A DNA stretch of 64,000 nt from assembly GCA_002841765.1 (NCBI GenBank), contig PHAV01000006.1:77975-141974 (forward strand), written 5' to 3'. Under the pieces are notes generated by a model. It did not search any database, was not told where the DNA came from, and saw nothing but the letters and a program-made list of their open reading frames with translations. Below, piece by piece: positions 19,482 through 54,426 of the stretch. The stretch's first letter is position 1. Each line of letters begins with the position of its first letter. Position numbers and translations under genes: made by a program. This DNA comes from Deltaproteobacteria bacterium HGW-Deltaproteobacteria-4. GTDB taxonomy: Bacteria; Desulfobacterota; Desulfuromonadia; Desulfuromonadales; UBA2197.

Positions 19482-19826
19482 ATGCCCGTGAGCAGTCCCG
19501 AATTCGACCGTCCCCCCAGTCAGCAGGATTACCGGGTCAACTTCTTTCGTCCGCAGGCCGGCTTTATGCGCCGCGAGGTCATCTATATCTGGATTGCCCT
19601 GATTGCCTGGGCGCTGTTAACCTTCGGCTTTCAATTTCTGATCTATTCCGGCCAGACCGACGCCAGCGGCAGTGGCCCCTTGACCAGTCGCACCATCTTC
19701 TCTTTTCCCTTCGAATACTGGTTTACCGGGCAGTTTCTCATCATCTGGTTTATCCTGATCTGCTTCCTCTTTAATCTCATGGTCGACCGCCTCACTGAGC
19801 GCTACCGGCAACGGAGGCAGCAGTGA
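19482..19826 (+). CDS. DUF4212-type small membrane subunit of a solute:sodium symporter
   Basis: Start set at ATG (MPVSSPEF) behind AAAGGAG. Two TM segments. The stop overlaps the symporter start (TGATG). Paralog of 43664..43918. Confidence 0.7.
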   Translation: MPVSSPEFDRPPSQQDYRVNFFRPQAGFMRREVIYIWIALIAWALLTFGFQFLIYSGQTDASGSGPLTSRTIFSFPFEYWFTGQFLIIWFILICFLFNLMVDRLTERYRQRRQQ

Positions 19827-38672: not shown

Positions 38673-38714
38673 AATCGGACCGATCTGACCGATCGGACCG
38701 ATCCGACTGATCGG

Positions 38715-40467: not shown

Positions 40468-40470
40468 AAT

Positions 40471-40576
40471 CACCACCCCCCGACCCCCTCCTAAACTAAG
40501 GAGGGGGAGACGGTCAAAAGCTCCCCTCTTTTTTTAAGGAGGACCCAGATTCGGGCCTAAAGGGCTGGGGGTGGCG
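40471..40576. repeat. Composite palindromic repeat (CACCACCCCC...CCTCCT family), degenerate
   Basis: CACCACCCCCCGACCCCCTCCTAAACTAAGGAGGGGGAGACGG ... AAGGAGGACCC ... AGGGCTGGGGGTGGCG. Confidence 0.7.
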
Positions 40577-40587
40577 AGGTTCTTGAT

Positions 40588-42042
40588 TTACCGCGGTGCG
40601 TTCATGTCAAGCTGATAGCGGTTGCGCATGATGCTGATCAGGGTGTTGACGCCGCGCAGGGCGCTGCGAAGCTGATCGCGGGATCGCTCGGGGAGGAGGG
40701 ACGGGTCGACAAGGTTGCCCGCCTCCTGTCCGGAGCTGAGAGCACTCAACTGCTTCTCCAGACGCAGCTTGACGAGAAAGGTAAAGCCTTCTTTCAAGGT
40801 TTCCCACTCCTCATCCGAGACAATCTGGAGGAGGTGGAGACGTTCGAGTTTATCCCAGGTTGTCCCGCCGAGAATCCCCGTCTCCAGGGCGAGGAGCCCG
40901 ACCCCCCGGGTCAAAGTAAAAATCCCCCCCTTTTTTAGATCGATCTTCCCCCGCTCCTCCCCTGATTTCCCCGTTAAAAAGCGGCCAAAGATGCCGATCG
41001 GCGCTTTGAAACGTGCGATATTGCGCGCCATGTTCGGAAAGAAGATGCCGTTGTTTTTGGTGTAGACGCTGAGATGGACGCGCAGTTCTTTCTCGAATTC
41101 CTTGTCACCATGCACCACGCGTAAATCCTGAAAAACGCCGAAATAGACCATCTGCTCCGGGGTGGGGATAGAGATCCAGCGCGCCGTCAATTCTTTCCAT
41201 TCGCTCAGGCTGTGGCACCAATCCGGAGAGTTGGCCATCATCTGCCCCGGGCAAAGGGGGACGCCCACAAACTCCAGGGCGGCGACAATGCGTTCGGCAA
41301 AGCGCCGCACCTCGACAAGTTGGTCGGCGGGGAGGTCGTCGCGGTAAACGATGGCACTGTCCTGGTCGGTGCGCAGGGTCTGCTCACCGCGCCCTTCGCT
41401 TCCGAGAGCAAGGTAGGCCGCGCCGGGCGGCAGGCAGATCCTCTCTGTGGTGGCGAGGATGGCGATCAAACGCTCGGTCAAAGCATCATTGAAATGGCTG
41501 ATGAGTTGAATCAGGCTCTGGGTATCGGCATTGGTACGGAGCGCGTACTGGAGCATGCCGATCATCTTTTTGCCGAGGGTGCGCAGCTGTTCGAGAGAGG
41601 TCGCCGCTTCGATCTCTTTGATCAGATAAAGCGGGCTGCGGGTTTGAATGCGCAGCAGGTCGGTATCGGTCATGACCCCGACGAGGCGCTCCAGTTCATC
41701 GACGACGATCAGGCGGTGGATATTGTGCTTGGCCATCAAAAAGATGGCCTTGAAGAGGTAGTCGTGGGCGTAGATGGTGATCAGGCGAGTCTTCATGATT
41801 TCGCCGACCTTCAGCTGCCCGAGGGTGTCAGGGGCATCGGCGATGAGGTTGCGGAGGTCGCGTAGCGAGACGATGCCGACGGGCTTTTCTGTTTCGACGA
41901 CCACGACCCCTGAAATATTCTGGCGCTTCATCAGGCGGGCCATTTCAACCAGGCTCAGCTCGGGCGAACAGGTGATAGCCGGACGATGGCAGACACTGTC
42001 AACGGTGATGAAAAAGAAACTGTCTTCATTGATAGCCGGCAT
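40588..42042 (-). CDS. CBS-pair + DUF294-type nucleotidyltransferase + DUF294_C substrate-binding-domain protein (paralog 1)
   Basis: Two CBS-like repeats (...GVVVVETEKPVGIVSLRDL..., ...HRLIVVDELERLVGVMTDTDLL...). NTase motif LALGSEGRGEQTLRTDQDSAIVY. Start set at ATG (MPAINED) behind AGGTGG. Confidence 0.8.
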   Translation of the reverse strand: MPAINEDSFFFITVDSVCHRPAITCSPELSLVEMARLMKRQNISGVVVVETEKPVGIVSLRDLRNLIADAPDTLGQLKVGEIMKTRLITIYAHDYLFKAIFLMAKHNIHRLIVVDELERLVGVMTDTDLLRIQTRSPLYLIKEIEAATSLEQLRTLGKKMIGMLQYALRTNADTQSLIQLISHFNDALTERLIAILATTERICLPPGAAYLALGSEGRGEQTLRTDQDSAIVYRDDLPADQLVEVRRFAERIVAALEFVGVPLCPGQMMANSPDWCHSLSEWKELTARWISIPTPEQMVYFGVFQDLRVVHGDKEFEKELRVHLSVYTKNNGIFFPNMARNIARFKAPIGIFGRFLTGKSGEERGKIDLKKGGIFTLTRGVGLLALETGILGGTTWDKLERLHLLQIVSDEEWETLKEGFTFLVKLRLEKQLSALSSGQEAGNLVDPSLLPERSRDQLRSALRGVNTLISIMRNRYQLDMNAPR

Positions 42043-42339
42043 GATGTCCACCTGATTTTTGACGGGAAGTGATCATATTCTTCCGTAATTGCTGGAAGAA
42101 TGCAATTCAAAAGGGTGGACGCCACCGCTGTTCCGCCACCGCTGCTGTGTTCCACTCTGTAACGCCGTTTAAGTCCATCGCTGCCGGTGGCCGGGAGGGG
42201 GCTGTTTGCCGGTATGGATTCCTTTGTTCCCGTGTATCAATAAAACGCATATTTATCGAATTTATTTTTATCAGCGAAACATCAACTCCCTTGTTATGAA
42301 AAATCAAAAGGAGATAAATAATTTTATTTTTCAAAAGGT

Positions 42340-42368
42340 TTGACCGATCTAATCGATAAAAATATAAT
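42340..42368 (+). promoter_or_regulatory. Near-consensus sigma70 promoter with no adjacent ORF
   Basis: TTGACC (42340-42345) - 17 nt - TATAAT (42363-42368), counted base by base. Confidence 0.5.
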
Positions 42369-42374
42369 AAATAA

Positions 42375-42440
42375 AGATAGTTATTCGTTTAATGGAGCTT
42401 GAAGATTCCTCTTTTGGGGGGTGGCAGCTCCCTTTTTTTG
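42375..42440 (+). ncRNA. Candidate ~65-nt small RNA, or terminated leader, between the orphan promoter and a T-tract hairpin
   Basis: GGAGCT (42394-42399) pairs with AGCTCC (42426-42431), with an inner CCTC/GGGG pairing, followed by TTTTTTT (42433-42439). No ORF with an RBS in the unit. Confidence 0.3.
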
Positions 42441-42482
42441 CGAGATTAATATGCCGGTGAAATGAAATTTTAAAATATAGTG

Positions 42483-42511
42483 TTGACAATTATAGAACGA
42501 TGTACTAATAA
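42483..42511 (+). promoter_or_regulatory. Putative sigma70 promoter of the iclR-family gene
   Basis: TTGACA - 17 nt - TAATAA, preceded by the AT-palindrome ATTTTAAAAT. Confidence 0.4.
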
Positions 42512-42584
42512 AAATATAACACACTTTAGAAAAACGTTTTATCCCCATTTGGCCCTTTCACGATAGACGATCAAAGGTGCAAAG

Positions 42585-43349
42585 ATGACCAGAGAAAAAG
42601 GCGTCTATTCAGTTCAAGCGGTTGTCAAGGCGATTGAGCTTCTCGAAGCGCTGGCGCAGGAGGAGACCAATCTCACCCTGGCAGTCCTGGCCAAGAAGCT
42701 CGAGCTCAGTCGCAATAAATCATTCCGCCTCCTGGCCACCCTTGAAGACAAGGGACTGGTCGAGCGCAATGAAAGTACCGGTGCTTACAGTCTTGGCGTG
42801 CAGGCCTTCGAGATGGCGCAGCATATTCTCAAGAGTGCGAACCTTCTCCGTCTGGCTCACCCGGTGATGGAAGAGTTGGCCCATAAACTTGGCGAAGCCA
42901 TCTACCTTACCGTTGTTAGTGACGATGAAGTCCTCTTTCTTGATATGGTCGATTCCTTTCAGCAGGTCCGCGCTGTCGATCTGGTCGGCAAGCGTTTCCC
43001 CTTCTTTACCAACGCCGCCGGCAAGGTGATCAAGTCGGTCGGTTCCATCGATCTCTTCGGGCGTGGCGGCAAGCGCCGCAGCGAAGAGGAATCCCGGGAA
43101 TTGGTCAAGGAGCTGGAAGAGATTCGCCGTAAAGGTGTGGCTGTCGATTTTGGCGGACTGGGCGAAGGGATCTGTGCGGTGGCAGTGGTGATACGCGATT
43201 ACGCCGGCAAGGTGGTCGGTGCGCTCACTCTTCTCGCCCCCTCCTTTCGTATGCTGCCGGAGCGACTGGAGGGTGAAGTGATCCCCGCCCTTTTGGTCGC
43301 CGGTGAGCAGTTGTCGATGAAATTCGGTTATTCTCGTGCCTATGCTTGA
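42585..43349 (+). CDS. IclR-family transcriptional regulator
   Basis: N-terminal wHTH (VQAVVKAIELLEALA...LAVLAKKLELSRNKSFRLLATLEDKGLVE) and a C-terminal IclR effector-domain pattern. 254 aa. Confidence 0.8.
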   Translation: MTREKGVYSVQAVVKAIELLEALAQEETNLTLAVLAKKLELSRNKSFRLLATLEDKGLVERNESTGAYSLGVQAFEMAQHILKSANLLRLAHPVMEELAHKLGEAIYLTVVSDDEVLFLDMVDSFQQVRAVDLVGKRFPFFTNAAGKVIKSVGSIDLFGRGGKRRSEEESRELVKELEEIRRKGVAVDFGGLGEGICAVAVVIRDYAGKVVGALTLLAPSFRMLPERLEGEVIPALLVAGEQLSMKFGYSRAYA

Positions 43350-43663
43350 CGATTTTTAATAATGGTGTAAGTTCTTTGGCAGATGATAATTTTTACCAGA
43401 AAGAGTTTCGCTCAAAGGTTTAATCGCAAAAACTGTTATGCACCGACATGAAGAAGATCTATTGAATGCTAGGAAAGGAGAATGAATGACTTTAATGAGA
43501 CGAAAAGGCGCAACCTTCGGCAGTGTCACTTTTAACGAGGAGGTCTCATTCCGCCGGCATCTGTAACAACAGCAGTACAAAAGTTCGAGATGGAAAAGTG
43601 GTGATTATCGCGGCTGATTCCGGCCAAGAGCAACCAACATTACAAGCAGAGTGAGGAGAATTT

Positions 43664-43918
43664 ATGGACACAAGTGGAAAGGCTTACTGGCACGCGGTAC
43701 TAAAACTCGTAGGGGCACACCTATTCGTCTGGGCCCTGGTTTCTTATGGTTTCGGTATCGTCTTCGCTTCGGCACTGAACAACATCCATCTGGGTGGTTA
43801 CCCGCTTGGCTTCTGGTTTGCGCATCAGGGCTCGATCTATTGTTTCATTGCCCTGATTTTCGTGTTCGCCAAGTTGATGGGCGAACTTGACAAAAAATTC
43901 GATGTCCACGAGCAATAG
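43664..43918 (+). CDS. DUF4212-type small membrane subunit of a solute:sodium symporter
   Basis: 84 aa, two TM segments, GAGGAG RBS, directly upstream of the SSS gene. Confidence 0.7.
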   Translation: MDTSGKAYWHAVLKLVGAHLFVWALVSYGFGIVFASALNNIHLGGYPLGFWFAHQGSIYCFIALIFVFAKLMGELDKKFDVHEQ

Positions 43919-43931
43919 GGAGGCGACCTAA

Positions 43932-45737
43932 ATGGATCTTCAAACTTTAACTTATCTTTTCGTTGGCGGTAGTTTCGCCGTTTACTTCGGCATCGCCCTT
44001 TGGGCTCGCGCCGGCAGCACCAGCGAATTCTATGTGGCCGGTGGTGGCGTTCCCCCGATGTTGAACGGCATGGCTACCGCGGCTGACTGGATGTCGGCAG
44101 CGTCCTTTATCTCTATGGCCGGCCTCATCTCCAACATGGGCTATGGCGGCGGTCTCTTCCTGATGGGGTGGACCGGCGGCTACGTTCTGATGGCGATGCT
44201 GCTGGCTCCTTACCTGCGTAAGTTTGGCAAGTTTACCGTCCCCTCCTTTGTCGCTGAGCGTTACTATTCCAATGGCGCGGCAACCGTGGCGGTTATCTGC
44301 CTCTTGACCATGTCCCTGACCTATATCATCGGCCAGATGACTGGCGTCGGCGTCACCTTTGCCCGTTTCCTCGGGGTGACCAACGAAATGGGTATCTACC
44401 TTGGCATGGCGATCGTCTTTGCCTATGCCGTCTTCGGCGGCATGAAGGGGATCACCTACACCCAGGTGGCCCAGTACGTTGTCTTGATCGCCGCCTATAC
44501 AATCCCGGCCATCTTCATCTCCTTCCAGTTGACTGGCAATCCGATCCCCCAGCTCGGCCTCGGCGGTGATCTGGTCGGTCAGAACATCTCTCTGCTGGCC
44601 CGGCTTGATCAGGTCGTCACCGACCTTGGATTCGGCCAGTACACCACCTCGGCGACCGGCAGCTTGTTTAACATGTTCATTTATACCGTGACCCTGATGA
44701 TCGGCACCGCCGGTCTGCCCCACGTCATCATTCGCTTCTTCACCGTCCCCACCGTTGCTGCGGCCCGTTCCTCGGCCGGTTGGGCCCTGGTCTTCATTGC
44801 CCTGCTTTACACCACCGCACCCGCGGTAGCCGCCATGGCCCGCATGAATCTGATCTCCACGGTCAACTCGGCCGCCAAGACCGGCGGCGACATGTACGCC
44901 GCCGATGCCAGCCTGGTTCATGCCGAGCGTCCGGCCTGGATGAAGCGTTGGGAAGTCACCGGCCTGCTTAAATGGGAAGACAAGAACAACGACGGCCGCA
45001 TTCAGTACTACAATGACAAAACCAAGAACGAAGCTGCCGCCGCTAAAGCAGCCGCTGCAGGCTGGGGCGGCAACGAACTGACCGTCAACGCTGACATCAT
45101 CGTTCTGGCCAACCCGGAGATCGCCCTGCTGCCCAACTGGGTCATCGCTCTGGTCGCCGCCGGCGGTGTCGCAGCAGCACTCTCCACCGCCGCCGGTCTG
45201 CTCCTCGCCATCTCTTCGGCAATCTCCCATGACCTGCTGAAGAAAATCTGGATGCCGAACCTCAGCGAAAAAGGCGAACTGATGGCCGGTAAAGTTGCCA
45301 TGGCTGGCTCGATCGTGGTTGCAGGCTGGCTCGGTCTCAATCCCCCGGGCTTCGCTGCCGGCACCGTGGCCCTGGCCTTCGGTATTGCCGCCTCCACCAT
45401 CTTCCCGGTACTGATGATGGGTATCTTCAACAAGAAGATGAACAAGGAAGGCGCCATTGCCGGTATGCTGGCAGGTCTGTTCGTCACCCTGTTCTACGTT
45501 TTTGCCCACAAAGGGATCTTCTTCATCAAAGGGACCGGTTACCTCCCCTTGATCGGTGGCGCGAACTCCTTCTTAGGCCTCACCCCGGAAGCCTTTGGCA
45601 CCATCGGTGCGCTGGCCAACTTTGCTGTCGCTTATGTGGTGAGCAAGTTCACCCCGGAGTGCCCGGAGCACATCCAGCACCTGGTTGAAGATGTCCGTAC
45701 GCCGCGTGGATCTAAAGTCGTCAGTGGCGCGCACTAA
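43932..45737 (+). CDS. Sodium:solute symporter family transporter (601 aa)
   Basis: Polytopic, GTAGLPHVIIRFFTVPT block, AGGGAGG RBS. Contains a hydrophilic insert (...KWEDKNNDGRIQYYNDKTKNEAAAAKAAAAGWGG...). Confidence 0.8.
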   Translation: MDLQTLTYLFVGGSFAVYFGIALWARAGSTSEFYVAGGGVPPMLNGMATAADWMSAASFISMAGLISNMGYGGGLFLMGWTGGYVLMAMLLAPYLRKFGKFTVPSFVAERYYSNGAATVAVICLLTMSLTYIIGQMTGVGVTFARFLGVTNEMGIYLGMAIVFAYAVFGGMKGITYTQVAQYVVLIAAYTIPAIFISFQLTGNPIPQLGLGGDLVGQNISLLARLDQVVTDLGFGQYTTSATGSLFNMFIYTVTLMIGTAGLPHVIIRFFTVPTVAAARSSAGWALVFIALLYTTAPAVAAMARMNLISTVNSAAKTGGDMYAADASLVHAERPAWMKRWEVTGLLKWEDKNNDGRIQYYNDKTKNEAAAAKAAAAGWGGNELTVNADIIVLANPEIALLPNWVIALVAAGGVAAALSTAAGLLLAISSAISHDLLKKIWMPNLSEKGELMAGKVAMAGSIVVAGWLGLNPPGFAAGTVALAFGIAASTIFPVLMMGIFNKKMNKEGAIAGMLAGLFVTLFYVFAHKGIFFIKGTGYLPLIGGANSFLGLTPEAFGTIGALANFAVAYVVSKFTPECPEHIQHLVEDVRTPRGSKVVSGAH

Positions 45738-45764
45738 GCTGATCGTTCATGAAGGTTAGTTTTG

Positions 45765-45796
45765 CCCCGCCAGCATTTGCTGGCGGGGTTTTTTTC
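45765..45796 (+). terminator. Intrinsic terminator after the SSS gene
   Basis: CCCCGCCAGC-ATTT-GCTGGCGGGG followed by TTTTTTT. Confidence 0.85.
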
Positions 45797-45893
45797 TATG
45801 ATTATTTGATTGCTAGAAGACCGCTTCCTCGGGTACAAACAGACGCTATAAAATTATCAATGCCTCCTGAAGGGGGCCCGATAGGAGTATCGA

Positions 45894-46265
45894 ATGTCTG
45901 ACGGAATACTTTTTAATGCCAGCATCGCAATGACATGGATCCTTTTCCTGGCGCTGTTTCCCATGACCTTTTTTTGGCTGCGTCGTGCCTGGCGTATTTT
46001 TATCAAAAAAGACTATTCCGAAGTGGCCTTGAAACATGGGGAGTCACCACCGAATCCAAAAAAATGGGCACTGGTTGTCGGGCTTCTCAATATTTTTGCC
46101 GGGTCGGTTGCCATCGCAGTGATCGTCGGCGTTGCGATCGGCCACTGGCATTACGACACCTGGACGGCTATGGCTGGTTCGACGATCTGGATCAAGCTTT
46201 TTGCTGACTTTGTCATCAGTCGTCAGGCGCACCCATTTACCAAAAAGAAAAAGAAAGAAGCTTAA
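45894..46265 (+). CDS. Hypothetical small membrane protein
   Basis: 123 aa, AGGAG RBS, 3-4 hydrophobic segments, Lys-rich tail (KKKKKEA). No family recognised. Confidence 0.5.
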   Translation: MSDGILFNASIAMTWILFLALFPMTFFWLRRAWRIFIKKDYSEVALKHGESPPNPKKWALVVGLLNIFAGSVAIAVIVGVAIGHWHYDTWTAMAGSTIWIKLFADFVISRQAHPFTKKKKKEA

Positions 46266-46312
46266 TCCTTCATTGCGGGTTCCGCTTGCGATCGGAAGAA
46301 TGCACATCCCCT

Positions 46313-46345
46313 GCGGCCCGCCTCTTTTTTGGCGGGCCGTTTTTC
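46313..46345 (+). terminator. Intrinsic terminator
   Basis: GCGGCCCGCC-TCTTTTTT-GGCGGGCCG followed by TTTTT. It overlaps the track's upstream start of the next ORF, which supports the later start at 46377. Confidence 0.7.
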
Positions 46346-46376
46346 GTCTTTGCCCTTTAACGCACGGGAGGCTGAC

Positions 46377-47822
46377 ATGAACATCGAAGAACACGTTTAT
46401 GCTCGACCCGTACGGGAGTTCTGCCGCCGGGAGCTGATCCTTTGTTCCAGCGACGACTTTGTGCAGGACGCTGCGGCGCAGATGGCGCAACAGGGGATTT
46501 CCAGTGTGATTGTCTGCGCTGACGGAGAACCGGTGGGGATCTTCACGGATCGTGACCTGCGTAACAAGGTGGTGGCTGTCGGCGGGGATGCTGCCACGCT
46601 GCGGGCTGGAGCCATCATGAGCCACCCGCTTGTCGTCGTCAGGGACGAAGATTTCCTCTTCGAAGCCGTTTATCAGATGTCCCGGCAGGGAATCCATCGT
46701 GTCGGTGTGGTCGATACAGCGGGCCGCTTGTGCGGTATGCTCACCGAATCAGATTTGATCCGGGTGCAGACCAACTCGCCGCAGCGCCTGGTGCGGCAAC
46801 TCGCAAGTGCCGGGAGTATCGCCGACCTCAAGGTCATCCACCACAACATCAATGAGCTGACCGCTTCGCTGCATCAGGTGCGGGTGCCGACCCACGATCT
46901 GATGCGCTTGATCAGTCATTTGAATGATCAGATCGTGCAGCGTCTTATCGATCTCCTGCGCCAGGAGAAATTCTCGCAGCTACCTGCCGGCTTTGCTTTT
47001 GTCGCCCTCGGAAGCGAGGGGCGCGGCGAGCAGACCCTCAAAACTGATCAGGATAATGCCATGATCTATGCGGATGATCTCTCCGCCGCAGAGGTAGCGT
47101 GTCTTGCCAGTTTTTCCGAGGCGCTGATCGCTGCTTTGATAGAGATCGGTGTGCCGGAATGTCCCGGCGGCATCATGGCAACGAATCCCTTTTGGCGGCG
47201 GAGTTTGACGGCCTGGCGGGAGGAAATCGACCAGTGGATCAATCTCCCCGATAGCGAAAGTATTCTGCACTTCTGCATGTTCAGCGATCTGCGCACCCTG
47301 GCCGGTGACCCGGAACTGGAACAGGCGATCAAGGCGCATATTGCCGCGCGGACCCGGCAGGAAACGCTCTTTTTAACCCGATTGGCGGTTCAGGCCGGAA
47401 AGTTCGTTCCCCCTCTGGGTCTGTTCGGTGGTTTTAAGGTGGCAAAGGGGGGCGAGCACCGCGGCGAGATCGATCTCAAGACGGCCGGGCTCTTTGCGCT
47501 GACCGAAGGGATCAGGGTTCTGGGGCTTTCCATCGGATTGGTGGGGGGCGGGACGCCGGAGAAGATGGCGCAACTCGTTGCGCAAGGGGTGCTGAGTCAC
47601 GAACAATACCAGGACCTGCTGGCCAGCTTCAATCTGTTGTGTCAGTTACGGCTGCAGGGGCAGTTGGAGGCGATCACCATCGGGGGCGACCCTTCGAATT
47701 ACATCGCTCCTCGTGCCCTGAACCGTGTCGAGCAAGGACGGCTGCACGTCACCCTGGAAGTGGTGAAGTCCTTTGAGACCTTTATTAAAGCGCGCTTCCG
47801 CCTCGACCTTGTCCCGGGTTAA
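46377..47822 (+). CDS. CBS-pair + DUF294-type nucleotidyltransferase + DUF294_C protein (paralog 2)
   Basis: CBS repeats (...SSVIVCADGEPVGIFTDRDL..., ...HRVGVVDTAGRLCGMLTESDL...). NTase motif VALGSEGRGEQTLKTDQDNAMIY. Start at MNIEEHV behind GGGAGG. Confidence 0.8.
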   Translation: MNIEEHVYARPVREFCRRELILCSSDDFVQDAAAQMAQQGISSVIVCADGEPVGIFTDRDLRNKVVAVGGDAATLRAGAIMSHPLVVVRDEDFLFEAVYQMSRQGIHRVGVVDTAGRLCGMLTESDLIRVQTNSPQRLVRQLASAGSIADLKVIHHNINELTASLHQVRVPTHDLMRLISHLNDQIVQRLIDLLRQEKFSQLPAGFAFVALGSEGRGEQTLKTDQDNAMIYADDLSAAEVACLASFSEALIAALIEIGVPECPGGIMATNPFWRRSLTAWREEIDQWINLPDSESILHFCMFSDLRTLAGDPELEQAIKAHIAARTRQETLFLTRLAVQAGKFVPPLGLFGGFKVAKGGEHRGEIDLKTAGLFALTEGIRVLGLSIGLVGGGTPEKMAQLVAQGVLSHEQYQDLLASFNLLCQLRLQGQLEAITIGGDPSNYIAPRALNRVEQGRLHVTLEVVKSFETFIKARFRLDLVPG

Positions 47823-47861
47823 GTTCTGGCGAGGCGGCGGCTCCGGGTAATCTTTCTTTAC

Positions 47862-48488
47862 TTAAATGACGCTGGCAACTTCTTTGTTGGGCTTTTTGCA
47901 GAGATCGAAGAGGAGCTTGCCTAACCCGAGCAGCGCCATCGCCGCAAAGAACAAGCCCCTGCCGCTCGACGGTTTTTTCCCTTCGCTGATAAAGATGACC
48001 TGCTCAGAAACCGGAATATTCATCTTTGTCAGCAACTCTTTGAGTTTGCTTGCGTTAGAGTCAGCGATCAGGCTGCTGACAGTCATCCCCTGCAGGTCAT
48101 ACTGCCCGATAAAGAGTTGCCGGTTTTCCTTGAGGAATTCAGCGCGTGTTATTTCTGTGTCGAGATCAAAGTAGTAGGTTTTGAGAGCGTTGAGGATTTG
48201 CGGATCACGAGTTTCAAACCAGATCTGCAGATCCTCTGAGGTCTCGGACGCTTTCAACGGGACCAGAAAGGAACTGATCTCCACGGTGCCGCTCATGTTG
48301 ATCGCCTGCAGCAGGTCGCGATAGCCGCCCTCTATCTTCAGCCATTCCCGCGGTGCCCCCTGTCGGGTCAGTTCTGTTATGTTGATCACGTGTGGTTCGG
48401 GGTTGCGCAGATAAAGGGCAAGGTCGGTGACGCCGAGCCAGCCGAGGACGAGACAGACGACCAGTAAAGTGACACGGAAACGTTTCAT
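47862..48488 (-). CDS. Hypothetical membrane-anchored protein (N- and C-terminal TM segments)
   Basis: MKRFRVTLLVVCLVLGWLG... and ...GLFFAAMALLGLGKLLF. Visibly lower GC than its neighbours. Start set at the second Met, giving AAGGA 8 nt upstream. Confidence 0.5.
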   Translation of the reverse strand: MKRFRVTLLVVCLVLGWLGVTDLALYLRNPEPHVINITELTRQGAPREWLKIEGGYRDLLQAINMSGTVEISSFLVPLKASETSEDLQIWFETRDPQILNALKTYYFDLDTEITRAEFLKENRQLFIGQYDLQGMTVSSLIADSNASKLKELLTKMNIPVSEQVIFISEGKKPSSGRGLFFAAMALLGLGKLLFDLCKKPNKEVASVI

Positions 48489-48503
48489 TCTTTGCATCCT
48501 TAT

Positions 48504-48534
48504 GAAAAAAAGTGGGCCGCCCGAAGGCGGCCCA
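48504..48534 (-). terminator. Intrinsic terminator after the ActP-like gene
   Basis: The minus strand reads TGGGCCGCC-TTCG-GGCGGCCCA followed by CTTTTTTT. Confidence 0.8.
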
Positions 48535-48570
48535 AAGTATTTCAGAGCATCAGCTTTGAGGCAAGTTTAA

Positions 48571-50493
48571 TCAGGCGGTTTCGACGTCGTGGCCGCGGTT
48601 GATGTCCTTCTGGGTCATCAACGAGACGAGAACCAGAGTGAGAATCGACAGCGGGATAGAAATGGCGGCCGGGCTGTTAAAGCTGATCGGCGCATCCTTG
48701 GGGAGGAGGCCGTAAAGGGCCCACATGTCCGGGGAGATGAGGATCAGGCCGAGGGAGCTGACAATGCCGACGATGATCGAGGCGGAGATGCCGCGAGCGG
48801 TTGTCTTGCTCCAGAAAAGGAGCATGAGAATGGCGGGGAGATTCGCCGAGGCAGCAACCGCAAAGGCCCAGCCGACCAGGAAGGAGACGTTCATCCCTTC
48901 GAACATGATCCCGAGGTAGATGGCGATACAGCCGACGACGACCGCAGAGATCTTGCCGGCGCGGACTTTGCCGGTATCGCTCATTTTCATGTTGAAGTAG
49001 TTGTCCATCAGGTCATGGGCAACAGCGCCGGAGGCGGCAACGATCAGCCCTGATACAGTGCCGAGGACTGTAGCAAAGGCCAGGGAAGAGATGATTGCAA
49101 AGAGGATAACCCCGAAGGAGAGGGCCAGAAGCGGTGCGGACATATTGTTGTCGGTGAGATTAATGACACCGTTGGTCATGGCGCCGACCCCCATGAAGAG
49201 GGTGAGGAGATAAAAGAAACCGATGGCAGCGATGGCGACGATAGTCGATTTGCGGGCTGCCGCCTGGCTCGGAACCGTGTAATAGCGGATGAGGATGTGG
49301 GGGAGAGCCGCAGTCCCGCAAAAGAGGGCGAGCATCAGCGAAACGAAGTTGAAGGTCTCGGTCGGGGTGGCGTTGTCGACCTTGAACTTGAGGCCGGGCC
49401 GGAGAATCCGCGAGCCGGGGGTCGGTTTCTGGAAGAAGATTTCAGCCTTCTCCTTGCCGTCGACAACGTAGGTTTTACCCCAGAGGACGATTGTCGAATC
49501 CTTGATCGCCGAAAGATAGGCAAAGGGGCCGACGGCGCCGGTGGTGATGACTTCCTTGCCGTTCATCCGCAGTTCTTTGACGTGGCCGACCGGGAAGAAG
49601 TCACCGGCCTCTTTGGCGGCACCGTTATAAAGCTTGGTGCCGTCTGCTTTGGTGGTGACATAAAGCGTCTGCTCAAGAGTGAAGCCAGCGTCATTCCTGG
49701 CAAGTTTCCAGATCGTCTCTTTGCCGTCTTTGGCGAGTTTGACAAACCCGGCTTTGCCGTAGGCCGAATCGAGACCGGCAACAACCGTATAGGCAGGATC
49801 GCTGATCTCCAGCGCGGCGGTCGCGGTCAGAGGTTTGAAGTCATGATATGCAACGCCGTTATTCACCGGTGTGGTCGAGAGACCGCGAACCAGAACCATA
49901 ACGACGACGACCGTCGACATGATCAACAGCAGGGCGCCTTTGAAGAACTGAACATAGGTGGTCGAGGCCATCCCTGCGGTGGCGACGATAATGGTGACAA
50001 CAATACCGACGATGCAGACGCCAACCCAGTGCGGCAGACCGAGGAGGGGCTGGACGAGGACGCCGGCGCCGACCATCTGCGGGATGAGGTAGAAGACCGA
50101 GACCATCAGGGTGGAGATTGCGGCGGTGAGCTGAATCGACTTGGAGTTGAATTTGGAGTCGAGAGCATCGGTAAAGGTGTATTTACCGAGGCGTTTCATC
50201 GGCTCGGCAACGAGGAAGAGAGCGACGACCCAGCCGGCGAGGTAGCCGATCGAGTACATCCAGCCGTCATAACCGGAGGTCGCGATCATGCCGCAGATGC
50301 CGAGGAAGGAGGCTGCCGAGAGGTAGTCGCCGGCAAAGGCGATACCGTTGGTGAACCAGTGAACGTTGCCGCCGGCAGCATAATAGCTGGAAGCGGAACT
50401 GGTACGGCGGCCAAGGTAGAAGGAGAGGCCGAGGACGAAGGCGACAAACGTGATGAAGAGGCCGATAGCTAACGGAGACTGTGCGTAGATCAT
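48571..50493 (-). CDS. Cation/acetate symporter ActP-like SSS transporter with a large hydrophilic insertion (640 aa)
   Basis: YYAAGGNVHWFTNGIAFAGDYLSAASFLG and GTAALPHILIRYYTVPS blocks, as in ActP. AAGGGAGAA RBS. Preceded by a DUF485 gene, as in yjcH-actP. Confidence 0.8.
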   Translation of the reverse strand: MIYAQSPLAIGLFITFVAFVLGLSFYLGRRTSSASSYYAAGGNVHWFTNGIAFAGDYLSAASFLGICGMIATSGYDGWMYSIGYLAGWVVALFLVAEPMKRLGKYTFTDALDSKFNSKSIQLTAAISTLMVSVFYLIPQMVGAGVLVQPLLGLPHWVGVCIVGIVVTIIVATAGMASTTYVQFFKGALLLIMSTVVVVMVLVRGLSTTPVNNGVAYHDFKPLTATAALEISDPAYTVVAGLDSAYGKAGFVKLAKDGKETIWKLARNDAGFTLEQTLYVTTKADGTKLYNGAAKEAGDFFPVGHVKELRMNGKEVITTGAVGPFAYLSAIKDSTIVLWGKTYVVDGKEKAEIFFQKPTPGSRILRPGLKFKVDNATPTETFNFVSLMLALFCGTAALPHILIRYYTVPSQAAARKSTIVAIAAIGFFYLLTLFMGVGAMTNGVINLTDNNMSAPLLALSFGVILFAIISSLAFATVLGTVSGLIVAASGAVAHDLMDNYFNMKMSDTGKVRAGKISAVVVGCIAIYLGIMFEGMNVSFLVGWAFAVAASANLPAILMLLFWSKTTARGISASIIVGIVSSLGLILISPDMWALYGLLPKDAPISFNSPAAISIPLSILTLVLVSLMTQKDINRGHDVETA

Positions 50494-50508
50494 GTTATGG
50501 TTTCTCCC

Positions 50509-50775
50509 TTAACCGTTCAGGTCAGACTCTGCTTTGGTGCAGAGATGGTTGTAGATGACAGCTTGGAACAGCGCCAGAGCGATCAGCCCAAAGCCCCAGA
50601 GGACGGCGGCAGTCTGCCCCATCACTGTGGTTTCCATCGCTTTGGGATTGGTAGCAATGATGACGACATACGTAAAGTAAACGATGGTATAAAAGACAAA
50701 CATCTTTACTCCGAGTTTGGTCTTGTAGGCGGCCGCTTCGTCCTTGCCCAGTTTTACGGCGGGTCCATGTCCCAT
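50509..50775 (-). CDS. DUF485 (YjcH-like) small membrane protein
   Basis: 88 aa from MGHGPAVKLG... behind AAAGGAG. Two TM segments, immediately upstream of the ActP-like gene. Confidence 0.7.
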   Translation of the reverse strand: MGHGPAVKLGKDEAAAYKTKLGVKMFVFYTIVYFTYVVIIATNPKAMETTVMGQTAAVLWGFGLIALALFQAVIYNHLCTKAESDLNG

Positions 50776-50877
50776 GATAATCACTCCTTTGAATAATGTT
50801 TGTGGGGGAACTCTTCCGGCTCCCGCACAAAATGAAGAAAAAAACCTGCAAATGGCGCAGATCACCGACAGTAGAAC

Positions 50878-50942
50878 ACAAGATATGATTGAAAATACAA
50901 GATGTTATGCTGACTATTGTGGTAAATTATGCGTTATCTTGT
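50878..50942. promoter_or_regulatory. Three copies of an ACAAGAT motif (two direct, one inverted) in the divergent promoter region
   Basis: ACAAGAT at 50878-50884 and 50897-50903. ATCTTGT at 50936-50942. Extended similarity A(C/T)ACAAGAT(A/G). Confidence 0.35.
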
Positions 50943-51310
50943 GTTATTAGATCCGCGCCATAATATGTTGTTATAAAATCATGTCAACAAAAAATGTATA
51001 AAATATCTGGTTTTTTGTCGGGCTGGCAGAATTTTGTTTTTAGAGCGTGAAGAAGGAGTTCCATAAGTTCGGTGACTTGGAGAACATTTAGAATAGTGTT
51101 TGAGATGACTGGTAAATGGGACCATATCTGTATGGCGGATGAGGTGGAACTTTTCTAATGATTTGACAGCGCACCGGGAGGATTTTTGCCAACAAAGCAA
51201 CGATGATGAAAGCATTTGAAAACTGATTTGTTTTGAACTTAGTGTTATATAGATGGGGAAGGTTTTGCACCTTCCTGGTTGTCCCATTCTTTCTTTCGCG
51301 GAGCAATCCC

Positions 51311-52540
51311 ATGCCCCAGCGTCATGCTCCTCTACCGGAGAAATCGAGCGACTTCATCACCGGAATCACCCGACAGGTGCGGGAGTACATGCTCAGCCTC
51401 GACCGGGCAGAAGCCGAAGCTCTGTTGGGGCAGTTGCGGCAACGGGTGGAGGAGGAAAGTGTTGCTCTTGCCACCGTGCAGTCGACCCATACACAGTTGC
51501 TGCAACAGGTCGCGGTCAGTGCTGACTATCAGGAGTTGGCCGCGATTCACCGGCAGTTGAACGAGCTTGAGATCACACGTTTTGAAGCTGTCCCCTCAGT
51601 GCCGGCTTTGCATTATGCCTGCACCCGCTACCGTAATCTCCTCGCTGCCCGGACGATGACGCTGGTTGAAGCGGATATGGTTGGCAGCGGGGCGGGCCCG
51701 GCCCCGGTGCTGTATGCGCTGCTGAGTATGGGGAGTGACGGTCGTTACGAGCAGACGCTGATTACGGATCAGGATTATCTTCTCGTTTATGCCGATGGTG
51801 GTGCTGCCGGGGTCGACAGTTACTTTGTCACCTTCTCGGCGCAACTCGTTGACCGGCTCGCCGAGGTCGGGTTTAAAAAGTGCAGCGGCGAGATCATGCC
51901 GTCGAATCCGACCTGGCGGGGGTCGCTGCAGCAGTGGAAGCGCCGGATCCTGGCGATTGTCTGCTATGAATATGATGAATACGCCAAAAATCTCATGGAT
52001 CTGATCGTCCTCTCCGATGCCCGTTTTATCGCCGGGGAGCAGTCCCTGGCCGAAGCTCTGATCGTGGTGATTCGGGATTTTGAGCGCAGTTATTTCCAGG
52101 TCATCTATGGGATGGCAAAGGCCGCGACCGAGATGAAGGTCGGCCTTCGCTGGTTCGGGCGGCTCTGGACCGAGAAGAAGGGAGCGCATCAGGGCGAAAT
52201 GAACATCAAGCTCCTTGGCTGGGCGGCGCTGGTGATGAATGTGCGCATCCTCGCCGTCAACCATAATATCATTGAAACCTCGACGCTGCAGCGCATCGAC
52301 AAACTCGAGTTAGCGCGCAGTTTCTCCGCCAAATTTGCCGCCGGCTTGCGCAGTGCCTATCTGCTCTTGACCCGCCTGCGCATCCAGTTGCAAATTCGCG
52401 AACTGCGCGGCCTGCAGGAAGATTCTTATTATCTACAACTTCAAACCCTGAGCCTGCGCGAACAGGAGGAGTTGCGCCAGGCCCTGCGGCGCATTGAAGA
52501 GTTGCAGAAGATTATCCATACCAATTTCACCATTGTTTGA
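51311..52540 (+). CDS. DUF294-type nucleotidyltransferase + DUF294_C protein without CBS domains (paralog 3)
   Basis: NTase motif LSMGSDGRYEQTLITDQDYLLVY. The N-terminal ~110 aa is helical/coiled-coil-like instead of CBS. Start set at MPQRHAPL. Confidence 0.7.
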   Translation: MPQRHAPLPEKSSDFITGITRQVREYMLSLDRAEAEALLGQLRQRVEEESVALATVQSTHTQLLQQVAVSADYQELAAIHRQLNELEITRFEAVPSVPALHYACTRYRNLLAARTMTLVEADMVGSGAGPAPVLYALLSMGSDGRYEQTLITDQDYLLVYADGGAAGVDSYFVTFSAQLVDRLAEVGFKKCSGEIMPSNPTWRGSLQQWKRRILAIVCYEYDEYAKNLMDLIVLSDARFIAGEQSLAEALIVVIRDFERSYFQVIYGMAKAATEMKVGLRWFGRLWTEKKGAHQGEMNIKLLGWAALVMNVRILAVNHNIIETSTLQRIDKLELARSFSAKFAAGLRSAYLLLTRLRIQLQIRELRGLQEDSYYLQLQTLSLREQEELRQALRRIEELQKIIHTNFTIV

Positions 52541-52568
52541 ACGGTGCAGCTTGCAAAGGAGTCCTTCT

Positions 52569-53036
52569 ATGAGTCAAGCCGGAGTGGTACGGATCCAGCA
52601 TTTGATGAGAATTCACAGCATTGTGCAGGGGGTTTTGATGGCGCTCCTGCTCTTTGTTGCCTGGAAATTACAGCAGGTCTATGCGGTAAAAGGGGCGCTG
52701 AAGCTCTTCTTCAACAGCATCTATCTGACCCTGGGGTTGCAGGTCCTCTTTTTTTATCCGATTTATCGTTTTGCCGCCAGGGAGGCATCGGCTGAACTCA
52801 CGGCGCCCAAGGCAAAAAAGGAGCAAGAGCAAAAGGCGTTGCAACGGCAGCGCATCGTTGCCTCTCTCAGCAAAGCGGCGGTCTTTATCTTCTACGGCAC
52901 CTTGATCGCCAGTGCTCCGGCCGGCACCTTTGTCAGTAGTGCGGCGTTTTTCTCCTTTTTCGCGACAACGCTGACCTATCTGCAATGTTTCAACTTTGCC
53001 GCGAACAGGTTGCTCCTTTCACCGAAAAAGCGTTAA
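52569..53036 (+). CDS. Hypothetical membrane protein
   Basis: 155 aa from MSQAGVV behind AAAGGAG. Four hydrophobic segments. No family recognised. Confidence 0.45.
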   Translation: MSQAGVVRIQHLMRIHSIVQGVLMALLLFVAWKLQQVYAVKGALKLFFNSIYLTLGLQVLFFYPIYRFAAREASAELTAPKAKKEQEQKALQRQRIVASLSKAAVFIFYGTLIASAPAGTFVSSAAFFSFFATTLTYLQCFNFAANRLLLSPKKR

Positions 53037-54370: not shown

Positions 54371-54426
54371 AGGGCCTCCTTTGCCTGGGTTTGTCAGCAA
54401 AGTATAGCGCATTCCCCGGGATCCAG

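What the first reader, a model, noticed from the sequence alone, without database searches (positions are those of the whole stretch)
40588..53036. Three DUF294-type nucleotidyltransferase paralogs interleaved with acetate-type Na+/solute symporter modules: an uncharacterised transporter-linked signalling locus
**Seen in sequence: three paralogs.** Each has the GS(E/D)GR.EQTL.TDQD nucleotidyltransferase motif and a C-terminal DUF294_C-like helical domain.
- 40588-42042 (-): fronted by a CBS pair.
- 46377-47822 (+): fronted by a CBS pair.
- 51311-52540 (+): fronted by a coiled-coil-like segment instead.

**Seen in sequence: genes between them.**
- An IclR regulator.
- A DUF4212 + SSS pair (43664-45737).
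- A DUF485 + ActP-like pair (50775-48571).
- Three small membrane proteins of unknown function (45894, 47862, 52569).

A further DUF4212 + SSS pair sits at 19482-21346.

**Established knowledge.**
- The DUF294 catalytic domain belongs to the GlnD/GlnE-type NTase fold. A genuine GlnE with the related G.GK.GG.EL...SD.D motif is in this same window for comparison.
- CBS pairs commonly sense adenine nucleotides.
- To my knowledge no substrate or target has been defined for DUF294 proteins.

**Inference.** Threefold duplication next to carboxylate symporters suggests energy-charge-responsive nucleotidylylation (AMPylation or UMPylation). The target could be the transporters, their small subunits, or the IclR regulator. 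Synthesis of a nucleotide signal controlling acetate uptake is an alternative.
Basis: partly seen in the sequence, partly recalled or inferred. Interest (0 to 1): 0.7.

Follow-up and report, generated by a model that had tools for sequence, protein, structure and literature searches.

The report
Acetate-transporter locus with three DUF294 nucleotidyltransferases
This stretch of a Geobacter-like bacterium carries two sodium-coupled acetate/monocarboxylate uptake cassettes, a transcription regulator and three old relatives of an enzyme family (DUF294) already known to travel with such transporters but whose chemistry is still unknown, so it is a lineage-specific version of a known, unsolved association.

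Summary
Pfam finds DUF294+DUF294_C in all three proteins. Two carry a CBS pair; the third has a helical N-terminus. IclR, DUF4212+SSS and DUF485+SSS lie between them.

- **Not a recent triplication.** The paralogs are 23-37% identical and belong to three separate clades.
- **P1 clade (40588-42042).** 11 of 11 orthologous loci sit beside IclR and/or a DUF4212-SSS cassette.
- **P3 clade (51311-52540).** 3 of 3 orthologs lie directly downstream of DUF485-SSS.
- **P2 clade (46377-47822).** 24 loci (432 kb) hold no SSS gene. Its position here is shared with one close relative.
- **Already documented.** TIGRFAM VC_2705 family, fitness data, and the CrbS/R (MxtR/ErdR) acetate regulon of Pseudomonas all record the DUF294-SSS-Acs link. 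The biochemical function remains unknown as of 2026.

AlphaFold models match only GlnE and DrrA in the PDB at E ≤ 0.001. All are protein-tyrosine AMP-transferases or AMP-removers. This favours protein nucleotidylylation over RNA tailing or messenger synthesis.

The variant features here are no DnaQ-like exonuclease partner, no cNMP domain, IclR instead of CrbS/R, and one CBS-less paralog.

The source is the MAG HGW-Deltaproteobacteria-4. Interest is moderate to low.

The parts
40588..42042 (-). P1: CBS-CBS-DUF294-DUF294_C nucleotidyltransferase (484 aa), transcribed divergently from IclR.
   Evidence: Pfam. Its orthologs (43-66% id) lie next to IclR and/or DUF4212-SSS in 11 of 11 Desulfuromonadales-type loci.
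42585..43349 (+). IclR-family transcription regulator (254 aa).
   Evidence: Pfam HTH_IclR + IclR_C. It is 55-76% identical to the IclR genes next to DUF294/SSS cassettes in L004-L007, L010, L084 and L085. GSU1072-type IclR is reported to regulate the acetate transporter genes GSU1068 and GSU1070 (PMC7962754).
43664..43918 (+). DUF4212 / TIGR03647 small subunit of a Na+/solute symporter (84 aa).
   Evidence: Pfam E 1e-30. NCBIfam TIGR03647 scores 99.6 bits against a cutoff of 26.
43932..45737 (+). VC_2705-family Na+/solute symporter large subunit (601 aa). A strong terminator lies at 45764-45789.
   Evidence: NCBIfam TIGR03648 scores 793 bits against a cutoff of 321. Terminator.
45894..46265 (+). 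Small membrane protein (123 aa, 2-3 hydrophobic segments), conserved third gene after DUF4212-SSS. A terminator lies at 46313-46340.
   Evidence: 54-63% identical copies occur just after the SSS gene in L007, L008, L009, L019 and L033. No Pfam or NCBIfam family.
46377..47822 (+). P2: CBS-CBS-DUF294-DUF294_C nucleotidyltransferase (481 aa). It belongs to a widespread stand-alone clade.
   Evidence: Pfam. AF2 model pLDDT 92. Clade members at 45-58% id occur in Desulfuromonadales, Rhodocyclaceae and Chromatiaceae, with no conserved neighbour.
47862..48488 (-). Bitopic membrane protein (208 aa; N- and C-terminal hydrophobic segments), downstream of the ActP-like symporter.
   Evidence: 78% identical gene in the same position in L086. 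No family hit. A terminator-like hairpin at 48534-48513 separates it from the SSS gene.
48571..50493 (-). ActP/MctC-like Na+/monocarboxylate symporter (640 aa) with a hydrophilic insert of about 180 aa.
   Evidence: Pfam SSF E 2e-67. NCBIfam MctC 426 bits and ActP 334-398 bits, all below the equivalog cutoffs. 77-93% identical across Desulfuromonadales and named 'cation acetate symporter' by NCBI.
50509..50775 (-). DUF485 (YjcH-like) small membrane protein (88 aa), first gene of the DUF485-SSS operon.
   Evidence: Pfam DUF485 E 1e-8. Called as 88 aa on L001.
51311..52540 (+). P3: CBS-less DUF294-DUF294_C nucleotidyltransferase (409 aa) with a four-helix N-terminus, divergent from DUF485-SSS.
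   Evidence: Pfam. AF2 pLDDT 89. Foldseek hits at E ≤ 0.001 are only GlnE (1v4a, 3k7d) and DrrA (6yx5). Orthologs form IclR-DUF485-SSS-P3 operons in Geotalea uraniireducens and others.
52569..53036 (+). Small hydrophobic ORF (155 aa) after P3. Its status as a gene is uncertain.
   Evidence: Called on L001. No homolog in the other loci held and no family.
19482..21346 (+). Second DUF4212 + VC_2705-family SSS pair, with no DUF294 gene next to it.
   Evidence: Pfam and NCBIfam.

Best explanation
**What the locus is.** It is the monocarboxylate (acetate-type) uptake region of a Desulfuromonadales bacterium. It joins two conserved cassettes.
- Cassette A: P1 <> IclR, then DUF4212 + VC_2705-type symporter + a 123-aa membrane protein.
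- Cassette B: DUF485 + ActP-like symporter (+ a 208-aa membrane protein), with P3 alongside.
- P2 is a member of a housekeeping-like stand-alone DUF294 clade that happens to lie between the cassettes.

**Proposed mechanism.**
- IclR provides transcriptional control. This is inferred from the GSU1072 literature.
- P1 and P3 are dedicated post-translational regulators of the neighbouring uptake systems. They are single-domain GlnE/DrrA-like nucleotidyltransferases with an intact G-x11-D-x-D site.
- They most likely attach an NMP covalently to a protein of the uptake system: the transporter, its small subunit, or IclR.
- In P1 and P2 the CBS pair gates this activity through an adenosine-type ligand, that is, energy state.
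- Published genetics in other bacteria fit an inhibitory 'writer' (DUF294) opposed by an 'eraser' (the DnaQ-like exonuclease). Loss of the exonuclease mimics loss of the transporter, while loss of DUF294 does not.
- This lineage lacks the eraser next door.

**Shown.** Domains, motif conservation, fold relationship, and clade-specific gene linkage.

**Inferred.** The substrate, the nucleotide, the sign of regulation, and the CBS ligand.
For: - **Domains and motif:**
- **Fold:** for P3 the only PDB matches at E ≤ 1e-3 are GlnE 1v4a (3.7e-8, TMq 0.63), GlnE 3k7d and DrrA 6yx5_B. Aminoglycoside NTases follow at E of about 1e-2, and RNA TUTases at E of about 0.6. P2 gives the same three non-CBS top hits. 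hhalign against the window's GlnE gives E 3.8e-5. GlnE's C-terminal helical domain hits DUF294_C.
- **Linkage overall:** an SSS module lies within 3 kb in 36 of 79 loci across Desulfuromonadales, Nitrospirota, Chloroflexota, Aquificota, Bacteroidota and others.
- **Linkage by clade:** P1 clade 11/11 and P3 clade 3/3. The internal control, the P2 clade, has 0 SSS genes in 432 kb. P1 stays next to DUF4212-SSS even where IclR is absent (L008, L009, L011-L014), so the transporter module is the constant partner.
- **Literature:**
  - The DUF4212/SSS pair is cofit with a nearby gene that the authors describe as a COG2905 RNase T-domain protein (10.1101/072470).
  - Δpp_0353 (exonuclease) and ΔactP-I both grow poorly on pyruvate. 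Δpp_0354 (DUF294) does not (PMC9927547).
  - PA3232-PA3235 are co-induced 16-fold (PMC9765439).
Against: - No biochemical activity has been shown for any DUF294 protein.
- Fold similarity does not fix the substrate.
- The conserved pairing with a 3'-5' exonuclease in other phyla (25 of 79 loci within 3 kb) would also fit a nucleic-acid or oligonucleotide substrate.
- No exonuclease, Acs or CrbS-like kinase lies within this 64-kb window, so the writer/eraser logic cannot simply be transferred.
- P2's clade shows no SSS linkage. In G. sulfurreducens and D. versatilis its orthologs sit by 2-oxoacid dehydrogenase genes instead.
- The set of 80 loci was retrieved with the catalytic motif and ranked by similarity to P1. 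It is not a random sample of the family.
Confidence: 0.4

Rival explanations
1. **RNA-directed control.** DUF294 adds nucleotides to the 3' end of an RNA, either the transporter mRNA or a small RNA. In other phyla the RNase_T-like exonuclease trims that tail. Transporter expression is therefore set post-transcriptionally.
For: - An exonuclease lies directly downstream of DUF294 in many phyla.
- PMC9927547 discusses nuclease-mediated mRNA control.
- Pol-beta NTases include poly(A) and CCA-adding enzymes. One such enzyme is in this window at 22172-23413.
Against: - Foldseek places RNA-tailing enzymes (TUTase 3hiy) at E of about 0.6, against 1e-8 to 1e-6 for GlnE and DrrA.
- Pfam finds no RNA-binding domain.
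- No exonuclease lies in this window.
- No Rfam RNA lies in the locus.
Confidence: 0.15
2. **Nucleotide-messenger synthase.** DUF294 makes a small nucleotide or oligonucleotide signal in response to the ligands of its CBS (or cNMP) domains. Elsewhere the exonuclease degrades that signal. The transporter, or a regulator, reads it.
For: - The synthase-plus-3'-5'-exonuclease pairing resembles messenger make-and-break pairs.
- Sensor domains are fused N-terminally.
Against: - No recognisable receptor domain is encoded in the locus.
- The nearest structures are protein-modifying enzymes, not cGAS/OAS or other CD-NTases.
- The DUF294_C helical domain is the counterpart of the GlnE and GlnD substrate-binding domain.
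Confidence: 0.1
3. **General carbon/energy regulators with no specific tie to the transporters.** DUF294 proteins modify some central-metabolism target such as Acs or the 2-oxoacid dehydrogenases. Their position beside SSS genes reflects only shared regulon membership, or chance in the case of P2.
For: - The P2 clade has no conserved neighbour.
- P2 orthologs lie beside sucAB-lpd-acn in G. sulfurreducens and beside the PDH genes in D. versatilis.
- Acs is present in 22 of 79 loci.
- In P. putida the DUF294 gene lies near glcB and not near actP.
Against: - The P1 and P3 clades keep the SSS module as a neighbour in every locus examined, in different gene orders.
- The exonuclease and ActP-I mutants share a phenotype.
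- There is cofitness with DUF4212/SSS.
Confidence: 0.2

Closest known systems
COG2905 / DUF294 'cNMP-CBS-nucleotidyltransferase' genes of the CrbS/R (MxtR/ErdR) acetate regulon: pflu5625, PP_0354, PA3233, each with a downstream RNase_T-like exonuclease (PP_0353, PA3232).
   Same: - The same Pfam pair, DUF294 + DUF294_C, and the same GS.GR.EQT..TDQD motif.
- A CBS pair in P1 and P2.
- The same genomic company: ActP-like or VC_2705-like SSS with a DUF485 or DUF4212 subunit.
   Different: - No cNMP-binding domain; about 410-480 aa instead of about 630 aa.
- No exonuclease partner, no Acs and no SSS-fused histidine kinase in the 64-kb window.
- IclR takes the place of the two-component system.
- One paralog has lost the CBS pair.
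GlnE (glutamine synthetase adenylyltransferase) and Legionella DrrA/SidM: protein-tyrosine AMP transferases.
   Same: - Pol-beta NTase core followed by a helical 'substrate-binding' domain.
- G-x11-D-x-D catalytic motif.
- Best and only confident PDB fold matches.
- Profile match to the window's own GlnE.
   Different: - Only 11-16% sequence identity.
- The Pfam GlnE model does not hit.
- A single NTase module instead of GlnE's two.
- CBS sensor domains.
- The target is unknown. No PII or GS context.
VC_2705-family two-subunit Na+/solute symporters (TIGR03648 + TIGR03647 / DUF4212), shown by fitness data to be needed for lactate or D-alanine use.
   Same: 43664-45737 and 19482-21346 score above the curated cutoffs for both subunits. 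DUF294 genes are frequent neighbours.
   Different: The substrate of the window's transporters has not been tested. Here an extra conserved 123-aa membrane protein follows the pair.
Geobacter acetate-uptake genes aplA/B/C with DUF485 genes and the IclR regulator GSU1072.
   Same: The IclR-DUF485-SSS(-DUF294) organisation is seen in Geotalea uraniireducens, Trichlorobacter thiogenes and a metagenomic Geobacteraceae contig. The window's IclR is 55-60% identical to those IclR genes.
   Different: The window's 640-aa ActP-like symporter aligns with those SSS genes at only about 43% over a third of its length in a single-HSP search. Orthology to AplA/B/C is therefore not shown. The gene order differs too: P3 is divergent and not downstream.

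Membership tests
DUF294 / COG2905 nucleotidyltransferases | PF03445 (DUF294) and PF10335 (DUF294_C) above gathering score. | tested here: met
   All three proteins score 113-150 bits and 129-133 bits, against cutoffs of 21 and 22.5.
DUF294 / COG2905 nucleotidyltransferases | Pol-beta catalytic signature G[S]-x11-D-x-D plus a third acidic residue. | tested here: met
   G212, S213, D224, D226 and D304 (P2 numbering) are invariant in 79 sequences and in 53 sequences. 88 of 89 full-length ORFs in the loci also keep the motif, but those loci were retrieved with that motif, so this count is circular.
DUF294 / COG2905 nucleotidyltransferases | N-terminal sensor domains: cNMP-binding plus a CBS pair (the canonical COG2905 architecture). 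| tested here: not met
   The CBS pair is present in P1 and P2 only. No cNMP_binding hit occurs in any of the three, and P3 has neither domain.
DUF294 / COG2905 nucleotidyltransferases | Adjacent DnaQ/RNase_T-like exonuclease gene. | tested here: not met
   HMMs built from the exonuclease clusters of related loci find nothing in the 64-kb window. Exonucleases are present in 29 of the 47 distant-form loci.
DUF294 / COG2905 nucleotidyltransferases | Genomic linkage to SSS monocarboxylate transporters and/or Acs. | tested here: met
   Met for P1 and P3 and their clades, not for the P2 clade.
GlnE/GlnD/DrrA-type protein nucleotidylyltransferases | Shared fold: NTase core plus helical substrate-binding domain. 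| tested here: met
   Foldseek gives 1v4a E 3.7e-8, 3k7d 1.6e-6 and 6yx5_B 1.7e-6 for P3, and 6yx5_B 8.4e-9 for P2.
GlnE/GlnD/DrrA-type protein nucleotidylyltransferases | Sequence-family membership (Pfam GlnE PF03710 / GlnD_UR_UTase PF08335). | tested here: not met
   Neither model hits at E ≤ 0.01. There is only a remote profile match, hhalign probability 71%, E 3.8e-5.
GlnE/GlnD/DrrA-type protein nucleotidylyltransferases | Transfers AMP or UMP to a tyrosine of a defined protein target. | not testable with these tools
   This needs enzyme assays or mass spectrometry. No paper read here reports it for DUF294.
VC_2705-family two-subunit Na+/solute symporter | TIGR03648 large subunit preceded by a TIGR03647 (DUF4212) small subunit. 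| tested here: met
   793 bits against a cutoff of 321, and 99.6 bits against 26, for 43664-45737. 471 and 35.7 bits for 19482-21346.
ActP cation/acetate symporter (E. coli-type equivalog) with YjcH | TIGR02711 above its cutoff, with a DUF485 gene upstream. | tested here: inconclusive
   TIGR02711 scores 334 bits against a cutoff of 1099, and MctC 426 against 670, so the protein is not an equivalog. The DUF485 partner is present. Sources name close homologs 'cation acetate symporter'.
CrbS/R (MxtR/ErdR) acetate regulon | SSS-STAC hybrid histidine kinase and response regulator controlling the cassette. | tested here: not met
   No SSS-fused kinase lies in the window. IclR is the adjacent regulator. 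Regulation by a distant kinase cannot be excluded.
Geobacter apl / GSU1072 acetate-uptake regulon | IclR (GSU1072-type) adjacent to DUF485-SSS acetate transporter genes. | tested here: inconclusive
   The IclR is 55-60% identical to the IclR genes heading DUF485-SSS operons in L006, L084 and L085. The SSS match to those loci is only partial.

The most novel reading that the evidence does not exclude
DUF294 enzymes are the carbon-side counterpart of GlnD and GlnE. On this reading they are ligand-gated protein nucleotidylyltransferases that reversibly switch Na+/monocarboxylate symporters, or their DUF4212/DUF485 subunits, off and on.

In most phyla a DnaQ-like 'exonuclease' would be re-used as the de-nucleotidylylase. 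That step is the same phosphodiester hydrolysis that releases a 5'-NMP.

The Desulfuromonadales P1 and P3 forms would be an eraser-free, IclR-coupled version in which the single NTase domain works in both directions, or in which turnover removes the mark.
Probability: 0.2. Interest if true: 0.7.

Novelty: new variant of a known kind. Interest (0 to 1): 0.35.

Why it matters
Acetate uptake sets the growth and electron flow of Geobacter-type bacteria in sediments and bioelectrochemical systems. DUF294 is a widespread family, found in many phyla and in the pathogens' acetate switch, and it still has no known chemistry.

This lineage offers stripped-down versions: 410-480 aa, no cNMP domain and no exonuclease. 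Two clades stay next to a transporter cassette in every locus examined, 14 in all, and one clade is unlinked and can serve as a natural control.

That makes target-finding experiments simpler than in Pseudomonas, where phenotypes are weak. If protein nucleotidylylation of a transporter were shown, it would be a new mode of transporter regulation.

As it stands, the finding mainly re-discovers a documented association.

Tried and rejected
- **PDB sequence search.** Single-sequence and profile searches returned only CBS-domain entries and nothing for the DUF294 core. Fold search was needed.
- **Shared operator.** A search for a common operator or repeat in the AT-rich intergenic regions 42052-42584, 43350-43663 and 50776-51310 gave only chance-level or coding repeats. 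No IclR box can be claimed.
- **Rfam.** A scan of the whole window found no RNA family in the locus.
- **Promoters.** The consensus scan found no more sites than in shuffled sequence.
- **Exonuclease, Acs and SSS-kinase partners.** A search of the window was negative.
- **Conserved neighbour of the P2 clade.** None was found.
- **Orthology of the 640-aa symporter to Geobacter AplA/B/C.** It could not be shown. There was only a partial match of about 43% to the Apl-like genes in L006, L084 and L085, so I do not call it Apl.
- **ORFs 39661-40476(-) and 38358-39644(-).** They have no family, are Arg/Pro-rich, and overlap + strand ORFs. I treat them as antisense artefacts.
- **'Recent triplication'.** Rejected on identity (23-37%) and on clade assignment.
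- **The symporter's 180-aa insert as the NTase target.** Rejected. It follows six hydrophobic segments. Assuming the usual SSS N-out topology (prior knowledge, not tested here), it should face the periplasm.
- **Complex prediction.** AlphaFold-Multimer of NTase plus transporter was not possible with the tools.

Full report
**1. Observation**

- Pfam gives CBSx2 + DUF294 + DUF294_C for 40588-42051(-), which I call P1 (start 42042).
- The same three domains are found for 46329-47822(+), P2 (start 46377).
- 51233-52540(+), P3 (start 51311), has DUF294 + DUF294_C without CBS.

Between them lie:
- IclR, 42585-43349;
- DUF4212, 43664-43918, followed by an SSF transporter, 43932-45737;
- on the minus strand, DUF485 at 50509-50775 followed by an SSF transporter at 48571-50493.

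The second DUF4212 + SSS pair (19482-21346) and GlnE (28659-31847) are also real. An identical 13-kb contig in an independent assembly carries the same gene calls (L001). The ActP-like transporter is 100% identical to a protein of the MAG 'Deltaproteobacteria bacterium HGW-Deltaproteobacteria-4'. The best named relatives are Trichloromonas, Geobacter and Desulfuromonas, so the window comes from a Desulfuromonadales-type bacterium.

**2. The three enzymes are old paralogs from three clades**
- P1 against P2 is 37% identical. P3 against either is 23-29%.
- The G-x11-D-x-D site and a third Asp are invariant in alignments of 79 and 53 homologs. All three are therefore probably active enzymes.
- The P3 N-terminus is modelled as four long helices. 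In the alignment its last part lines up with the helical linker that joins CBS to the NTase core in P2. P3 looks like a CBS-less form and not like a protein with a new domain.

**3. Neighbourhoods**

A scan of one genome per GTDB species with the family motifs returned 80 loci from many phyla. I called ORFs, clustered them, built HMMs from the recurrent clusters and re-scanned all the loci.

The recurrent neighbours of DUF294 are:
- SSS transporters with a DUF4212 or DUF485 small subunit;
- acetyl-CoA synthetase;
- a DnaQ/RNase_T-like exonuclease immediately downstream, sometimes fused to a sensor domain;
- SSS-fused histidine kinases with response regulators (representative sequences).

Counts over 79 loci:

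| Neighbour | Loci |
|---|---|
| SSS module within 3 kb | 36 |
| Exonuclease within 3 kb | 25 |
| Acs anywhere in the locus | 22 |

Assigning each DUF294 gene to its best window paralog shows that the linkage is clade-specific.
- **P1 orthologs** (43-66% id) are next to IclR and/or DUF4212-SSS in 11 of 11 loci. This holds even where IclR is missing.
- **P3 orthologs** (53-55% id) lie directly downstream of DUF485-SSS in 3 of 3 loci. In Geotalea uraniireducens and in a metagenomic Geobacteraceae contig they form IclR-DUF485-SSS-P3 operons.
- **P2-clade genes** (45-58% id) occur in Desulfuromonadales, Rhodocyclaceae and Chromatiaceae. They have no conserved neighbour at all, and no SSS gene in 24 loci covering 432 kb.

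That last set serves as an internal background. Fisher's test gives p = 4e-8 against the other loci.

Among the P2 orthologs whose loci were fetched, only the closest one (75% id, L086) repeats the window's convergent arrangement with the 208-aa protein, the SSS gene and DUF485. In G. sulfurreducens the P2 ortholog precedes sucA-sucB-lpd-aconitase. In Desulfuromonas versatilis it abuts the pyruvate dehydrogenase genes.

Caveats:
- The loci were retrieved with the catalytic motif and ranked by similarity to P1.
- My gene calling is crude.
- The HMMs are home-made.

**4. What the transporters are**
- 43932-45737 and its small subunit score far above the curated cutoffs of TIGR03648 (VC_2705 family) and TIGR03647.
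- Fitness data tie this two-subunit type to lactate and D-alanine use (bioRxiv 10.1101/072470).
- 48571-50493 is ActP/MctC-like but falls below the equivalog cutoffs. NCBI names its close homologs 'cation acetate symporter', and it is 77-93% identical across the listed hits, whose named members are Desulfuromonadales-type taxa.
- It carries a hydrophilic insert of about 180 aa after six hydrophobic segments. Assuming the usual N-out topology of SSS transporters (prior knowledge, not tested here), the insert should face the periplasm.
- I could not show orthology to Geobacter AplA/B/C.
- The 123-aa protein after the DUF4212-SSS pair is conserved in five other loci. The 208-aa protein is conserved in one. 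The 155-aa ORF after P3 is conserved in none of the loci held here.

**5. What is already known**
- The DUF294 gene and its downstream exonuclease are direct targets of the CrbS/R (MxtR/ErdR) acetate two-component system in Pseudomonas. The relevant papers are PMC5715377 for pflu5625 and PMC9927547 for PP_0354 and PP_0353.
- PA3232-PA3235 are co-induced about 16-fold on propionate (PMC9765439).
- A September 2026 preprint still calls the function unclear and suggests protein modification (10.64898/2026.09.07.749794).
- The Geobacter IclR GSU1072 is reported to regulate the acetate transporter genes GSU1068 and GSU1070 (PMC7962754). AplA-C are induced by acetate limitation (PMC7894505).

The association is therefore documented. 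The chemistry is not.

**6. Mechanism**
- AlphaFold models are confident: P2 has pLDDT 92 and P3 has pLDDT 89.
- For P3, which has no CBS domains to dominate the hit list, only four PDB chains from three entries match at E ≤ 0.001: GlnE N-terminal domain 1v4a, two chains of the GlnE C-terminal domain 3k7d, and DrrA 6yx5.
- Aminoglycoside nucleotidyltransferases follow at E of about 0.01. RNA uridylyltransferases are at noise level.
- P2 gives the same three non-CBS top hits. hhalign to the window's own GlnE gives E 3.8e-5.
- From prior knowledge, GlnE and DrrA add or remove AMP on a protein tyrosine.
- Both CBS motifs of P1 and P2 keep the h-h-[ST]-x-x-D ribose-binding pattern, for example GIFTDRD and GMLTESD in the translation. 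The reading of that pattern as adenosine-binding rests on established CBS knowledge and is an inference.

Published genetics fit a writer/eraser scheme.
- In P. putida, loss of the exonuclease and loss of ActP-I both impair growth on pyruvate. Loss of the DUF294 gene does not.
- In Shewanella and P. stutzeri the gene cofit with the DUF4212/SSS pair is the one the authors describe as a COG2905 RNase T-domain protein. From the gene order DUF4212-SSS-DUF294-Exo seen, I take that gene to be the exonuclease.

I therefore favour inhibitory nucleotidylylation of a component of the uptake system. This is an inference, with confidence 0.4. The constant genomic partner of P1 and P3 is the transporter module and not IclR, Acs or an exonuclease, which makes that module the leading candidate target.

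**7. What is different here**
- There is no cNMP domain.
- There is no exonuclease, Acs or SSS-kinase within 64 kb.
- IclR is the adjacent regulator.
- One paralog lacks CBS.
- Two linked cassettes and one unlinked clade member lie side by side.

I rate this a lineage-specific variant of a known, unsolved association. It is useful as a simpler experimental entry point, but a specialist would not find it surprising.

Noticed in passing
window 48571-50493 (-), protein residues ~205-385: The ActP-like symporter carries a hydrophilic, apparently beta-rich insert of about 180 aa after six hydrophobic segments. Assuming the usual SSS N-out topology, it would face the periplasm. The whole protein is 77-93% identical across Desulfuromonadales. 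A 56% identical full-length homolog sits just upstream of a DUF294 gene in a Gemmatimonadetes MAG (L058). The function of the insert is unknown.
   Followed up: partly
window 42340-42440 (+), P1-IclR intergenic region: A near-consensus promoter-like site (TTGACC-17-TATAAT, 11 of 12 matches) is followed about 50 nt later by a hairpin and T-run (42416-42433, then TTTTTTT). This could be a short transcript or a leader upstream of IclR. There is no Rfam match.
   Followed up: no
window 46313-46340 (+): A strong terminator-like hairpin (10 pairs, 9 of them GC, then a T-run) ends only about 30 nt before the P2 start codon at 46377. That leaves almost no room for a P2 promoter. P2 may depend on read-through, or may start elsewhere.
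   Followed up: no
L002 (G. sulfurreducens, 10001-11440) and L087 (Desulfuromonas versatilis, 10001-11443): P2-clade orthologs lie directly beside 2-oxoacid dehydrogenase complexes: sucA-sucB-lpd-aconitase in one and PDH E1-E2-E3 in the other. MsrB (SelR) is nearby in both, as it is in the window (53861-54412).
   Followed up: partly
L015, L021, L036, L059, L061, L064, L069 (clusters 5 and 6): In several phyla the DnaQ-like exonuclease is the C-terminal domain of a membrane/sensor protein of about 720 aa. It lies in a REC / sensor-exonuclease / SSS-fused histidine kinase / DUF294 cluster. This fused 'sensor-exonuclease' architecture was not examined further.
   Followed up: no
window 7947-8134 (+), 36508-36617 (+), 26385-26475 (+): A cobalamin riboswitch (123 bits), a TPP riboswitch (71 bits) upstream of the thi genes (ThiG at 37863-38672), and tRNA-Ser(GGA).
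   Followed up: no
window 19482-26223: The second DUF4212-SSS pair has no DUF294 gene next to it. It is followed on the opposite strand by a PolyA_pol/HD nucleotidyltransferase (22172-23413) and a GAF-GAF-sigma54 activator (23413-26223).
   Followed up: no
window 38358-39644 (-) and 39661-40476 (-): Two long ORFs (428 and 271 aa) have no family hit and an Arg/Pro-rich composition. They overlap + strand ORFs (38715-39836 and 39793-40467) and are probably antisense artefacts of GC-rich DNA.
   Followed up: partly
PDB hits (9s4v, 9s4w, 9qs7): The CBS pair of P2 resembles AcuB, a CBS protein of the Bacillus acu operon. I recall that operon controlling acetyl-CoA synthetase by acetylation; this was not checked in a paper here. 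If right, it is a second case of CBS sensors attached to acetate-metabolism control.
   Followed up: no
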